A DNA stretch of 64,000 bases, from contig CM069141.1 in assembly GCA_035221665.1 (NCBI GenBank), positions 41,912,001 to 41,976,000 of the forward strand, read 5' to 3'. Source of the stretch: Okamejei kenojei (taxonomy: Eukaryota). Position 1 is the first letter of the stretch, and every line of letters starts with the position of its first letter. This document shows positions 35,601 through 64,000 of the stretch, piece by piece. A program made the position numbers.

Positions 35601-38600
35601 AATTGGCCACAATGCTACGAGGAAAAGGAAGATTTGATATATAAGTATTCTACTATATTAAAAAACTTACATTTGAAATCTTTTAAATACCTAATTTCAT
35701 TGCCGTTCAGTAACTTTAGGCTAATCTGTGCTGGGTAAAGGTGCTGTTTAAATGACCTGGTATGATTATAACACACCGTTTGTACAGATATTAATAAGAT
35801 TGAGTTGTAGATTATTGTTTAACATTTTTTTAGATACAGATGTAATTTTTGCCTCGCTAAAGTTTGAGTAAACATGTTCTATAATTTGCTGCCTTCTGCA
35901 CGAGTGTGTATGTTCTGCGTATTTTTTGTATTATTATGAGGTGTCTTGCTCTTAAAAGATGGTTTACCTTTTCCTTCACTAAAACATCCAAAGGCCAAAA
36001 CTTATACTGCTAGCATTCCCATCAACCATTCTGCTACAGTCTGTTGCAGTACCTGTTGCATGATCTGATCTGTTCTTGTTTGCAGGCCACATTGTACATT
36101 TTCTGCTGATAAAATAAAACTAATCTTTGATTTAAATCTTTGACAATTTCATTTTGTTCAGCATCTTATTACATTTGATACTAAACTCATGATATGTAGC
36201 CTGCAAATCCCTTCAATTCTAGGAAATCTCGCCCAGAGAATGGTAAAAGAAACGAGGTAATACCTTTGGAGGGGAAAGGGTGGTGGGAGGTGTGAAATAA
36301 GGTAGTGGAAGAAGCAATAAATGGAATGATATAGAGGAACAGAAAGACATTCATAGTAACTGAACTGGTAAAGAAGCTGCAATGTTATCCTTGACTAGCT
36401 GGCATATAGAATATTAGAGCATGGAGGTTATGATGGAACTCAATATTACACGTTAGATTAGATTAGATTCTTTTATTTCCCATTCAGACCTTTCGGTCTG
36501 AACAAAATTTCGGTCCCCTGCAGTCATACATATACATTTTTTTAAATGACAGAACACACAATAAACACAAATTTAACATCCACCACAGTGAGTTCACCAA
36601 ACACCACCTCACTGTGATGGAAGGCAAAGTCTTAAAGTCTTGTAATCCACAGGTAACATTCTACAGATAGTTCCAGTTGGTATGGAAAAGGTGTAATTCT
36701 ACTGGTTGCAGGCAAGATTTGTAAAAATGTTGCCTAAACTGGATAATTGTATCTAATAGATTGGATAAACTAAAATTGTTTTATACGGGACAGAAGAGGC
36801 TGACGAAAGGCTAAATGTAGGTGTTCAAAATTGAGGATTACAAGGGAGGAAGATATTTTATTCAGGATAGTCTTGACAGGGTAAACGAAGAATATAATTT
36901 TAAATCCAGTATTTGAAGGAGCCAGGGATCTAGGGAAGTCCAGCTAACTGGATACAGAATTGGCTCCATGGTAGGAACCAGTGGGTGATATCATAGATAG
37001 TAAATATGGTTATTAAAAGTTAAATTGGGGTGGGAGATTGCAACCTTCACGTGGTCTCTGTTTCGATGAATGCAATCAACCTAATGTGCACGATCAAATA
37101 GAACAAGTTGTCTTACAACTTTAAGCTGTGCACGCCACACGCAAGAAGAAAAGTAAGCTATTGATCAACTGGGAAAATGCAGTTTAATGTAGAAAGGTCT
37201 GAGGTTTCAGGAAGTCATTAATGGTGTAAGATCATTGCCAGAATCACAGTTCCAATCTGGTTTACTTGCAGCCCTACCCAAATTGCTGGACCAACTCATC
37301 AGGTCGGGTAGCATCTCTGAAGACAATATTTCGGGTCAGGATTTTTCTTCAGATTGATGGGGGTAGGGGGGGCAAAGCTGGAAGAAAGGAGGGGCAGGTC
37401 ATAGCCTGGCAGGTAATAGGGTGATATAGGTGAGAATGGTTTTTTAATGTGCAGATGGCTGGACCAAAGGTCAGAGATGAAAAGACGAGGTGTGAGTAAA
37501 AGGATTGAAGAGTTGCAAATTGTGAAGCTAGAGGAAAGAATGTAGGTGGAAAGGGAGGAGGTGAAAAGATATAGTTGTGAGTCCAAGTGGTGCTGAGGGT
37601 AGCGGAGAAAGAAAGGGGAGGGTTTATGTTGGGGAAGAAGGGAGGGGGGGTGGGACATCTAAAGTACTTTATAATACTTAACTAAAGTGGAGGGTTTATA
37701 TAGAAGGAAGTGGGGTGGGACATCTAAAGTACTTTATAATACTTATCTAAAGTGGATGGTTTATATAGAAGGGAGGGGGAGGACTTATCTAAAGTACTTA
37801 CAGTACTTAGCTAAAATTGGAGAATTCAATGTTCATACCGTTGGGTCGTAAACTACCCAATCAGAATATAAAGTGTTGTTCCTCCAGTTTGTGTGTTGCC
37901 AATGGTAGGGCTGCAAGTAAACCAGATTGGAACTGTGGTTCTGGAAATGATCTTACACCATTAATGTGCTGGGGTGATCTGGCTCGCATATTAAAACCCT
38001 GTAGGTCTAAGAAATAGCACCAACCCTGCCAGGTTCTCAAATTGTAGAATTGCCACATTGGGTAATAAAACTACTTGGCTTCACCCTCCCCATTTTACCT
38101 GTGACAGATGGAGTTGTCCATGATAGCAAGAGTAGGAGTGAGTAGTATACATTCTGTGATAAGTAAACTCCTGTCTTCACATCAAGGATATCAATATGCA
38201 ATATGAGTAAAATTGAAACGGATCTGGAGACCCAAAACTGAACTGCAGAAAAGTACATTGTGACAATATGTTACTTCATGAATGGGATCCTGTTTCACCC
38301 ATCACTGCTATCAACCCTGTTTTGTTAAGTGCATAAGATCATGTCAGGAGTGTTCGGTCTTACCGAGAATTTTCCATTATAGGATCTATGCACAAAAAAA
38401 TGTGTATACTGTAAACCATTCAATAGAACCCAATGCTTTGACTTGAGGTACTCATTAATTTTTAACAGAAGGCCCATATTAAAAATGAGTAATTGATATG
38501 CCATGCAATGATAAATTAACGTGCCCTGGAATTTAGGGAAGAATGTATAGACTGACATTTTGTTAGTACATAGACAATCAATTAACAAGCAATAAAAGTG

Positions 38601-62600: not shown

Positions 62601-64000
62601 TCACAAATATTTCCCAACTACATTTTGCAATACTTCACACAATTTAAATCCATGATATTTCATGTTGTTCTAATAGAAACATTAAACATTTTGTATTAAA
62701 AGCAATTTCAAGGCATCCTTATCCACTTTGATCAGCTGCAGTCAAATCATGCAGTCTATGGAAATAGAAATATATTGCAACAGACATTAGAAGACAACTT
62801 GTCATAGTTTGAACTTTTAGTCTGACCTTCAAATGTAGAAGCTGTGACAGAGTTTGTATCCTGTGCACGGAGAGACTCATTTGTGGTTAAAGGATTTTGT
62901 GTGGTGATCTCTGGAACAGAAGAAATAATAATTTATTGTGCTGGTGCTGGTGAAGACATGTTCTGTCTCACTCACTGCTTTGCCACATATTGCATCAGCA
63001 TCATTCAGCTCACACACAGCTAACCCACTGGGTAGAATATAGAACCAGTGATTGTGGTGTTTTAGATCATTCATAGGGCCTTTCCAGATTTTCCACATTT
63101 AAAAATAATCATAATCCATTGGATTGTACTTACTGATGTGCACTCATTATCAAAGGTAAACAGCGTATGAGTAAACATTTTATTTTGAATTGGAAGCCTG
63201 AAGGTGGTGGGTGCAATGGGTCTGCCAGGACAGTGCAGCTGGTTGATCTCGGGGAAGCACTGGAAGTGGAACTGTGTGTGATGACGGGACTAGAAGTTGT
63301 CCAAAGAGTAAGAGGCTATAGGTGAGGCACTAAATGCTAACTTTGCATCTGTATTCATCAAGTAGAAGGACACGGAGGATAGTGGTCTATGACTTATGAA
63401 AATTGAAACACGAGGGGAAACCAAGGCAATGAACTCCACGCAGGTGGCACTGGTCAGGATCGAACCCGAATCACTGCAGCTGTGGGTAAACTGTGCTAAC
63501 AGCAACATCGTTGCGATGTCAGGAATGATACAGATATATGTAACATTGAGCTGTCTACAGTCCAAATTCACTAACACGTCTTGAAACAGTCCAAAGATCT
63601 TCACATGGCAACAAAACTAGCCAAGTCTTTGGGTATTTTTAAAGCGGAGATTGACATGCAATAACATATTATTGTGTAAATAATTATGGAAATCGGGATA
63701 AGCGTGAGAGACATTTAGCCTACATCAGAATTCCAAAAGTAAGGAGAAATGACGGTAGATAGAAGCAAGAGCTGAAGGGACAACAACAGCCAGAGTGCTT
63801 GGCGAACTTTGGCCATTTGCTCACTGCATTTCATCAACTAAGGCATTATTTGTGTTTTTTCTTGATTTCTTTGGCATCTAAAAAGTTTCAGAAGTGATAA
63901 ATCTGGCTGTAAAATCTAAAAATCGCCCATGGTTCTCAAGTGGGTTTTTACATACAAAATGAAAACGCCTCTGAAGCAAAATTTACAGTCAGATGTATCA

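What the first reader, a model, noticed from the sequence alone, without database searches (positions are those of the whole stretch)
38177..62910. Hidden micro-exon gene for a mucin-stalked single-pass receptor, convergent with PANK3
Seen: six minus-strand segments with canonical splice signals (84, 62, 94, 25, 22 and 66 nt) whose phases chain 1-1-0-1-2-0 into one open frame. The frame gives an S/T-rich stalk with N-glycosylation sequons, a ~24-aa hydrophobic helix, basic juxtamembrane residues and a short Tyr-containing tail. The ORF track cannot show this. Known: stalk/TM/small-cytoplasmic-exon layouts are typical of Ig-family immune receptors (TIM, CD300/pIgR-like, TREM) and sialomucins. 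In mammals the 3' neighbours of PANK3 are FBLL1 and RARS1, which are not membrane proteins. Inference: a fast-evolving or lineage-specific elasmobranch surface receptor whose ligand-binding exon lies beyond 64000.
Basis: partly seen in the sequence, partly recalled or inferred. Interest (0 to 1): 0.8.

Follow-up and report, generated by a model that had tools for sequence, protein, structure and literature searches.

The report
Skate TIM-family receptor gene, 3' exons
The small exons belong to a real gene, the tail half of a skate TIM-family (HAVCR1-like) immune receptor next to PANK3; the gene is already annotated in two related skates, so the find is correct but ordinary, and its last two proposed exons are wrong.

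Summary
All six minus-strand segments exist as described: the lengths, AG/GT signals, phases and open frame all check out.

The first four are real exons:
- 62910-62827
- 48747-48686
- 43816-43723
- 42316-42292

Each was translated and aligned on its own. They map colinearly and without gaps onto residues 151-237 of the RefSeq protein 'hepatitis A virus cellular receptor 1 homolog' of Amblyraja radiata (P0137) and onto its Leucoraja erinacea counterpart (P0138). Identities to P0137 are 22/27, 19/20, 28/31 and 7/7.

The true terminal exon lies 93 nt after exon 4, at 42198-42132, and is 18/21 identical to the C-terminus of P0137.

The IgV domain of P0137 matches solved TIM-1, TIM-4, TIM-2 and TIM-3 domains at E 3e-28 to 6e-21. 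The gene is therefore a TIM-family receptor, not a lineage-specific novelty.

PANK3 is confirmed on the + strand and the two genes converge. In A. radiata both genes lie on the same 66,065,264-base contig and carry consecutive accession numbers.

No intact IgV exon is in the window.

I searched exon by exon only; the joined model was not made or searched.

The parts
62827..62910 (-). Stalk exon A (84 nt, phase 1 to 1), S/T-rich, sequon NES
   Evidence: Sequence and frame. 22 of 27 residues identical to P0137 residues 151-177 and to P0138 residues 91-117. tblastn E 1.3e-09.
48686..48747 (-). Stalk exon B (62 nt, phase 1 to 0), S/T-rich, sequon NST
   Evidence: The ORF holding it found P0136 in the protein collection. 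19 of 20 identical to P0137 residues 179-198 and 18 of 20 to P0138.
43723..43816 (-). Transmembrane exon C (94 nt, phase 0 to 1). Skipped in A. radiata isoform X2.
   Evidence: Best 19-residue Kyte-Doolittle mean 2.41. 28 of 31 identical to P0137 residues 199-229 and 27 of 31 to P0138. tblastn E 9e-13.
42292..42316 (-). Cytoplasmic micro-exon D (25 nt, phase 1 to 2), basic juxtamembrane residues
   Evidence: 7 of 7 identical to P0137 residues 231-237. In frame 0 it reads the eight residues that precede the final L of isoform X2, P0136.
42132..42198 (-). True terminal coding exon E (67 nt with the TAA stop). It encodes a 21-residue tail with one tyrosine.
   Evidence: 18 of 21 identical to the C-terminus of P0137 (residues 239-259) and 19 of 21 to P0138. 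An AG acceptor with a pyrimidine tract lies 93 nt after exon D. Acceptor score is at the 94.8th percentile.
41908..41913 (-). First AATAAA after the stop (218 nt downstream), in an A-rich tract with six further AATAAA or ATTAAA. Likely poly(A) signal.
   Evidence: Pattern match only; the tract is A-rich, so such hexamers are expected there.
63560..63622 (-). Possible relic resembling the F strand and FG loop of the TIM IgV domain, with an in-frame TAG where W is expected. Its link to the gene is uncertain.
   Evidence: 10 of 21 identical to P0137 residues 124-144. E 0.16-0.22 against the whole window. 24.3 bits against a best of 21.9 in 58 other 1090-nt tiles.

Best explanation
[quoted passage not shown] It lies tail to tail with PANK3.

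**Gene structure on the minus strand**
- Two short S/T-rich stalk exons (62910-62827, 48747-48686).
- One transmembrane exon (43816-43723).
- A 25-nt basic micro-exon (42316-42292).
- A 67-nt terminal exon (42198-42132) that encodes a tail with one tyrosine.
- The signal-peptide and IgV exons are not in the window in intact form.

**Inferred mechanism, from the family and not shown here**
- The IgV domain, held above the membrane by the glycosylated stalk, binds phosphatidylserine on dying cells through a metal-ion-dependent site between the CC' and FG loops.
- The tail tyrosine is phosphorylated and passes on a signal, as in TIM-1 and TIM-3.
- Skipping the 94-nt TM exon shifts the frame, so the terminal exon gives one more residue and then a stop. 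That would make a secreted form, as annotated for A. radiata isoform X2.

They are chance AG...GT segments in the PANK3-TIM intergenic region.
For: - **Database hit.** A search with the unspliced 43-residue ORF around exon B found one protein, P0136, an A. radiata HAVCR1 homolog isoform X2 with a V-set domain. Its cluster also holds isoform X1 (P0137) and the L. erinacea protein (P0138).
- **Colinear mapping.** Exons A-E, each aligned on its own, cover P0137 residues 151-177, 179-198, 199-229, 231-237 and 239-259. Identities are 22/27, 19/20, 28/31, 7/7 and 18/21. The three split codons between exons read from the window's bases give G, S and T, which are P0137 residues 178, 230 and 238.
- **Soluble isoform.** Exon D in frame 0 leaves one base. 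With the first two bases of exon E this reads L and then TAA, which reproduces the C-terminus of isoform X2.
- **Family.** P0137's IgV matches solved TIM-1, TIM-4, TIM-2 and TIM-3 domains at E 3.4e-28 to 5.6e-21, against 1.1e-11 for pIgR, the next family. All six TIM cysteines and the FG-loop N and D align. Pfam V-set scores 1.9e-15.
- **Synteny.** A. radiata PANK3 is XP_032885557.1 and the TIM isoforms are XP_032885558.1 and XP_032885559.1, all on a contig of 66,065,264 bases.
- **Host.** The window's PANK3 exons are identical to the skate protein P0122 within exon bounds.
- **Family architecture.** IgV, mucin domain, TM, and a tail with a tyrosine motif in TIM-1 and TIM-3, plus the phosphatidylserine site, come from passages of PMC8484753.
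Against: - No intact IgV or leader exon is in the window, so the family-defining domain is shown only for the orthologues and not for this copy.
- No protein identical to the window's exons was found. The window's own gene is therefore either unannotated or from a species not in the collection.
- Two of my three exon-wise searches found nothing:
  - Exon A's ORF: 9 candidates, none at E <= 10.
  - The TM exon against cluster representatives: 1 hit, a 346-residue protein at 38% identity with four matched stretches, which I take for a hydrophobic chance match.
  - The later mapping shows that both were false negatives.
- There is no transcript evidence for any junction.
- Exon A differs from both annotated skates at 5 of 27 residues, while they differ from each other at 1. 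A paralogue rather than the strict orthologue is not excluded.
Confidence: 0.9

Rival explanations
1. The reader's six-exon model is correct as written, or is a real alternative isoform. Exon D would then splice across about 3.9 kb to the 22-nt and 66-nt exons at 38.3 kb, giving a different hydrophobic tail.
For: The two segments have AG and GT signals and keep the frame open to a TGA. Their acceptors score at the 95th percentile and the exon 5 donor at the 97.8th.
Against: - Neither segment resembles P0137 or P0138.
- An exon that matches the orthologues' C-terminus at 18-19 of 21 residues lies only 93 nt after exon D.
- At these score levels about 40 candidate exons occur per strand of the window.
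- The proposed tail is hydrophobic, which is unlike a cytoplasmic tail.
Confidence: 0.04
2. The window's copy is a truncated or decaying TIM paralogue. Its IgV exon has been lost, and only the stalk, TM and tail exons remain open.
For: - Two minus-strand pieces just upstream of exon A resemble the F strand and FG loop of the TIM IgV: 63622-63560 (10/21, with an in-frame stop) and 63089-63060 (6/10).
- No identical protein is in the collection.
- Exon A is more diverged from both annotated skates than they are from each other.
Against: - The similarity is weak: 24.3 bits against 21.9 for the best unrelated tile.
- The two pieces cover the same part of the domain, so they cannot be halves of one exon.
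- 10 of 21 identity is far below the 81-100% of exons A-E. A recently decayed orthologous exon should look much closer.
- All five visible exons keep open frames and canonical splice sites.
Confidence: 0.08
3. There is no gene. The chain is a chance assembly of AG...GT segments by a reader who was free to pick among many.
For: Candidate exons of this splice quality are common: 40 on the minus strand, 39 on the plus strand and 21.5 in shuffles. Phase-compatible chains are therefore easy to build.
Against: Five exons are colinear with annotated proteins of two related species at 81-100% identity and tblastn E down to 9e-13.
Confidence: 0.01

Closest known systems
Amblyraja radiata 'hepatitis A virus cellular receptor 1 homolog' isoforms X1 and X2 (XP_032885558.1, XP_032885559.1; P0137, P0136) and the Leucoraja erinacea protein (XP_055498486.1; P0138)
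   Same: - Colinear with exons A-E from residue 151 to the C-terminus at 81-100% identity per exon.
- Same split-codon residues at the junctions.
- Same stop in the TM-skipping isoform.
- Beside PANK3, judged by consecutive accessions and a shared contig length.
   Different: - Not identical: 12 of 106 fully exon-encoded residues differ from P0137.
- The IgV and leader exons of the window's gene were not seen.
- These records are automatic predictions. I saw no experimental paper on them.
Mammalian TIM-1 (HAVCR1), TIM-3 (HAVCR2) and TIM-4 (TIMD4)
   Same: - Same architecture: IgV, S/T-rich stalk, one TM helix and a short tail (PMC8484753 passages).
- The orthologue's IgV matches TIM structures at E 3.4e-28 to 5.6e-21, with six aligned cysteines and the FG-loop N and D.
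- A tail tyrosine as in TIM-1 and TIM-3, which TIM-4 lacks.
- Human TIM genes lie at 5q33.2. PANK3 is on the same arm at 5q34 by my recollection.
   Different: - The stalk is very short: 47 residues from two exons. That is closest to TIM-3, which the review calls the shortest.
- The first aromatic residue of the FG-loop tip is P in the skates where mouse TIM-1 and TIM-4 have W.
- Which mammalian TIM, if any, is the one-to-one orthologue was not tested.
- In mammals the TIM genes are not adjacent to PANK3 (recalled).
   Same: Single IgV or mucin ectodomain, phase-1 exon boundaries, a TM exon and small cytoplasmic exons.
   Different: The orthologue's IgV scores 1.1e-11 or worse against pIgR domains, against 3.4e-28 to 5.6e-21 for TIMs. 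No CD300 or TREM chain appeared among the 33 matches at E <= 0.001.

Membership tests
TIM family (HAVCR1/HAVCR2/TIMD4) | N-terminal IgV domain with six conserved cysteines | not testable with these tools
   The exon is not intact in the window. In the orthologue P0137 all six cysteines align with mouse TIM-1 and TIM-4 structures, and Pfam V-set scores 1.9e-15.
TIM family (HAVCR1/HAVCR2/TIMD4) | Metal-ion-dependent phosphatidylserine site: FG-loop N and D with a hydrophobic tip | not testable with these tools
   Not visible in the window's own gene. In P0137 the N and D align with those of TIM-1 and TIM-4. The tip has P-F where they have W-F. Binding was not assayed.
TIM family (HAVCR1/HAVCR2/TIMD4) | S/T-rich mucin-like stalk between the IgV domain and the membrane | tested here: met
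   Exons A and B have 19 S/T in 47 residues and two N-x-S/T sequons. They are the only two S/T-rich candidate exons on the minus strand. Glycosylation itself was not tested.
TIM family (HAVCR1/HAVCR2/TIMD4) | Single transmembrane helix followed by a short cytoplasmic tail | tested here: met
   Exon C has a 23-residue hydrophobic stretch with a Kyte-Doolittle mean of 2.41. Exons D and E give a tail of about 30 residues that starts with basic residues.
TIM family (HAVCR1/HAVCR2/TIMD4) | Tail tyrosine motif (TIM-1 and TIM-3 type; absent in TIM-4) | tested here: inconclusive
   One tyrosine follows acidic residues in exon E and is conserved in P0137 and P0138. Its likeness to the TIM-1 and TIM-3 motifs is recalled, not aligned here. 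Phosphorylation was not tested.
TIM family (HAVCR1/HAVCR2/TIMD4) | Sequence homology of the window's exons to proteins that carry a TIM IgV domain | tested here: met
   Exons A-E are colinear with P0137 residues 151-259, with 94 of 106 fully encoded residues identical. tblastn E values run from 9e-13 to 7e-07.
Lineage-specific (orphan) elasmobranch receptor | No recognisable relatives outside the lineage | tested here: not met
   The orthologue's ectodomain is a TIM IgV at E 3.4e-28 against mouse TIM-1.

The most novel reading that the evidence does not exclude
This copy may have lost its IgV exon. Weak relics with stop codons lie at 63622-63560 and 63089-63060. It would then be expressed from the signal-peptide-like ORF near 63816 as an IgV-less stalk, TM and tyrosine-tail protein: a headless TIM that could signal or act as a decoy. 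A milder novel reading is that the tail-to-tail TIM-PANK3 pair in skates preserves the ancestral place of a single, short-stalked, tyrosine-tailed TIM gene, before the TIM-1/3/4 split and the separation seen on human 5q.
Probability: 0.07. Interest if true: 0.45.

Novelty: new member of a known kind. Interest (0 to 1): 0.2.

Why it matters
- The finding shows that a reader working from raw sequence can recover four true micro-exons of an immune receptor (84, 62, 94 and 25 nt) across 20 kb of repeat-filled introns. It also shows that chaining by phase alone goes wrong at the 3' end.
- Biologically it adds one more skate copy of a TIM-family receptor and fixes its exon structure, including a TM-exon skip that would give a secreted form.
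- It places the gene tail to tail with PANK3, which is a useful anchor for tracing the TIM locus in cartilaginous fishes.
- It opens no long-standing question. The family is well studied, and the orthologues already carry an automatic annotation.

Tried and rejected
- **Exon C peptide alone.** I then used unaltered stop-to-stop ORFs around single exons.
- **Exon A's ORF, 58 residues, longer proteins.** 9 candidates, none at E <= 10. later showed this was a false negative.
- **Exon C's ORF, 33 residues, against 1.84 billion cluster representatives.** One hit, P0121, at E 5.7e-05 and 38% identity with four stretches in a 346-residue protein. I take it for a hydrophobic chance match. The search did not find P0137.
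- **Splice-score and phase statistics.** These do not separate the model from chance. Only the content test and homology do.
- **Repeats.** No claimed exon lies in, or within 200 nt of, a sequence repeated within the window.
- **Pfam.** The ORF after the IgV-like relic (63290-63616) and exon E gave no family. Exon A's ORF gave only three weak matches at E 0.038-0.13, all below the cut-offs.
- **Literature.**
  - 'HAVCR1' with 'cartilaginous fish': 0 papers.
  - 'TIMD4', 'HAVCR1', 'zebrafish' and 'synteny': 0 papers.
  - 'HAVCR2' with 'shark': 50 papers, 10 listed, none of them on elasmobranch TIM genes by title or abstract start.
  - A five-term TIM-evolution search: 82 papers, 10 listed, none on fish TIM evolution by title.
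  - I therefore found nothing in print on skate TIM genes. These four searches do not prove that nothing exists.
- **Not done.**
  - There were no transcript data.
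Full report
**Observation**

Each has an AG acceptor behind a pyrimidine tract. The first five have GT donors, four GTAAG and one GTCAG. Phases 1-1-0-1-2-0 keep each segment open, and the last ends in TGA.

The window has no N and no soft-masking.

I translated every exon on its own.

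**Is it more than chance?**

I scored splice sites with a rough matrix whose frequencies I recalled from memory.
- The claimed acceptors lie at the 95.2nd to 99.5th percentile of 4084 AGs on the minus strand.
- The donors lie at the 96.0th to 98.2nd percentile of 3379 GTs.

Sites of that quality are common. With cut-offs at the weakest claimed sites:
- the minus strand has 40 candidate exons of 20-150 nt with an open frame;
- the plus strand has 39;
- 20 dinucleotide shuffles average 21.5, SD 4.6.

Splice signals plus a phase-compatible chain are therefore weak evidence.

The content is not weak evidence. Among the candidate exons of the whole minus strand, only two are S/T-rich (at least 35% over at least 15 residues), and they are exons 1 and 2. 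Only two loci are TM-like: exon 3 and a low-complexity stretch at 47323-47141. The plus strand has one of each. Forty shuffles average 0.125 S/T-rich and 0.075 TM-like exons. These thresholds were set after seeing the exons.

**Surroundings**

PANK3 is confirmed on the + strand.
- Its coding exons start at about 7594, 15027, 20115, 20724, 22967, 25762 and 27516.
- Within exon bounds they are identical to P0122, the PANK3 protein shared by Amblyraja radiata and two further accessions. Stingray, sawfish, electric-ray and shark PANK3 fit less well.
- I therefore take the window for a skate or a close relative. It is not a human contig.
- mir-103 lies in a PANK3 intron at 24752-24829.

The introns of the candidate gene are full of transposon relics. 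None of the claimed exons lies in a sequence repeated within the window.

**Identification**

- Exon 1's ORF gave nothing.
- The TM exon against cluster representatives gave one unconvincing hydrophobic hit.
- Exon 2's ORF gave one protein: P0136, 'hepatitis A virus cellular receptor 1 homolog isoform X2' of A. radiata, 207 residues with a V-set domain.
- Its cluster also holds isoform X1 (P0137, 259 residues) and the Leucoraja erinacea protein (P0138, 199 residues).

| Exon | Window coordinates | P0137 residues | Identity to P0137 |
|---|---|---|---|
| A | 62910-62827 | 151-177 | 22/27 |
| B | 48747-48686 | 179-198 | 19/20 |
| C | 43816-43723 | 199-229 | 28/31 |
| D | 42316-42292 | 231-237 | 7/7 |
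| E | 42198-42132 | 239-259 | 18/21 |

- Identities to P0138 are similar: 22/27, 18/20, 27/31, 7/7 and 19/21.
- The three residues left over (178, 230, 238) are the split codons at the junctions. The window's bases give G, S and T there, as in P0137.
- This mapping shows that the two earlier negative searches were false negatives.

**The 3' end**

The C-terminal 21 residues of the orthologues are encoded at 42198-42132. That exon sits behind an AG with a pyrimidine tract only 93 nt after exon 4, and it ends in TAA. AATAAA and ATTAAA hexamers start 197-299 nt downstream in an A-rich tract. The gene therefore ends near 41.9 kb, not at 38177.

The A. radiata isoform X2 is explained by skipping the 94-nt TM exon. 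Exon D read in frame 0 gives the eight residues that precede the final L of X2. The left-over base plus the first two bases of exon E gives that L, and a TAA follows. The window allows the same secreted form. That is an inference, not an observation of transcripts.

**Family**

P0137's IgV domain matches solved structures as follows:

| Structure | E-value |
|---|---|
| Mouse TIM-1 | 3.4e-28 |
| TIM-4 | 1.2e-26 |
| TIM-2 | 2.3e-25 |
| Human TIM-1 | 9.3e-24 |
| TIM-3 | 4e-23 to 5.6e-21 |
| pIgR (next family) | 1.1e-11 |

In the printed alignments all six TIM cysteines and the FG-loop N and D are aligned. The first tip residue is P where TIM-1 and TIM-4 have W.

A review, of which I read passages only (PMC8484753), gives these points:
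- The family plan is IgV, mucin domain, TM and intracellular domain.
- TIM-1 and TIM-3 carry a tyrosine motif, and TIM-4 does not.
- The phosphatidylserine site lies between the CC' and FG loops.
- The human locus is at 5q33.2.

The skate gene has a very short stalk and a tail tyrosine. Which mammalian TIM it corresponds to was not tested.

**Synteny**

In A. radiata, PANK3 is XP_032885557.1 and the two TIM isoforms are XP_032885558.1 and XP_032885559.1. All sit on a contig of 66,065,264 bases. This fits the tail-to-tail pair in the window, where the PANK3 coding sequence ends at 27566, just before its stop codon, and the TIM stop is at 42132. Adjacency from consecutive accession numbers is an inference.

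That mammals have FBLL1 and RARS1 there instead, and that PANK3 is at 5q34, are recalled and not tested.

**What stays open**

- No intact IgV or leader exon is in the last 1.09 kb.
- Two short minus-strand pieces resemble the F strand and FG loop: 63622-63560 (10/21, with an in-frame stop) and 63089-63060 (6/10). The better one scores 24.3 bits, against 21.9 for the best of 58 unrelated tiles. They may be chance or old relics.
- No protein identical to the window's exons was found. Exon A differs from both annotated skates at 5 of 27 residues, so a paralogue or an unannotated species is possible.
- No transcript data and no related genome DNA could be consulted.
- Four literature searches found nothing on elasmobranch TIM genes.

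**Verdict**

This is a real gene. The gene is ordinary, because orthologues are already annotated. The model is right for four of six exons and wrong at the 3' end.

Noticed in passing
window 24752-24829 (+): A mir-103/107 precursor (Rfam RF00129, 90.6 bits, E 8.1e-21) lies inside a PANK3 intron, between the exons at 22967-23092 and about 25762. This is the known host-gene arrangement (recalled).
   Followed up: no
window 7594-27569 (+): A complete PANK3 gene. Its exons are identical within exon bounds to the skate protein P0122. The first coding exon starts at 7594 in a GC-rich stretch.
   Followed up: partly
window 63560-63622 and 63060-63089 (-): Two short pieces resemble the F strand and FG loop of the TIM IgV domain. 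The first has an in-frame TAG where W is expected. Both cover the same part of the domain, and the significance is weak.
   Followed up: partly
window about 63720-63816 (-): An ATG-started ORF with a leucine-rich, signal-peptide-like start lies just upstream of the IgV-like piece (frame 1). It is unlike the N-terminus of P0137.
   Followed up: no
window 25458-25487 (-), 1806-1835 (+), 877-906 (-): The first ten residues of the A. radiata TIM isoforms (P0136, P0137) match three dispersed copies in the window at 8-9 of 10. The RefSeq models' N-terminus may therefore come from repeat-derived sequence.
   Followed up: no
window 52162-52527 (-) and 55359-55847 (+): A Sleeping-Beauty/Tc1-type transposase HTH relic (PF25787, E 6.5e-17) and a reverse-transcriptase fragment (PF00078, E 7e-18) lie inside the 14-kb intron between stalk exons A and B.
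   Followed up: partly
window 40457-41690 and 45084-46320 (+): Two copies of one repeat family with long open frames but no Pfam match. One lies downstream of the gene's poly(A) signals. The other lies in the intron between exons B and C.
   Followed up: partly
(method): Both searches missed proteins that tblastn later aligned at 81-90% identity to the same exons. Negatives from such short, biased queries should not be read as absence.
   Followed up: yes
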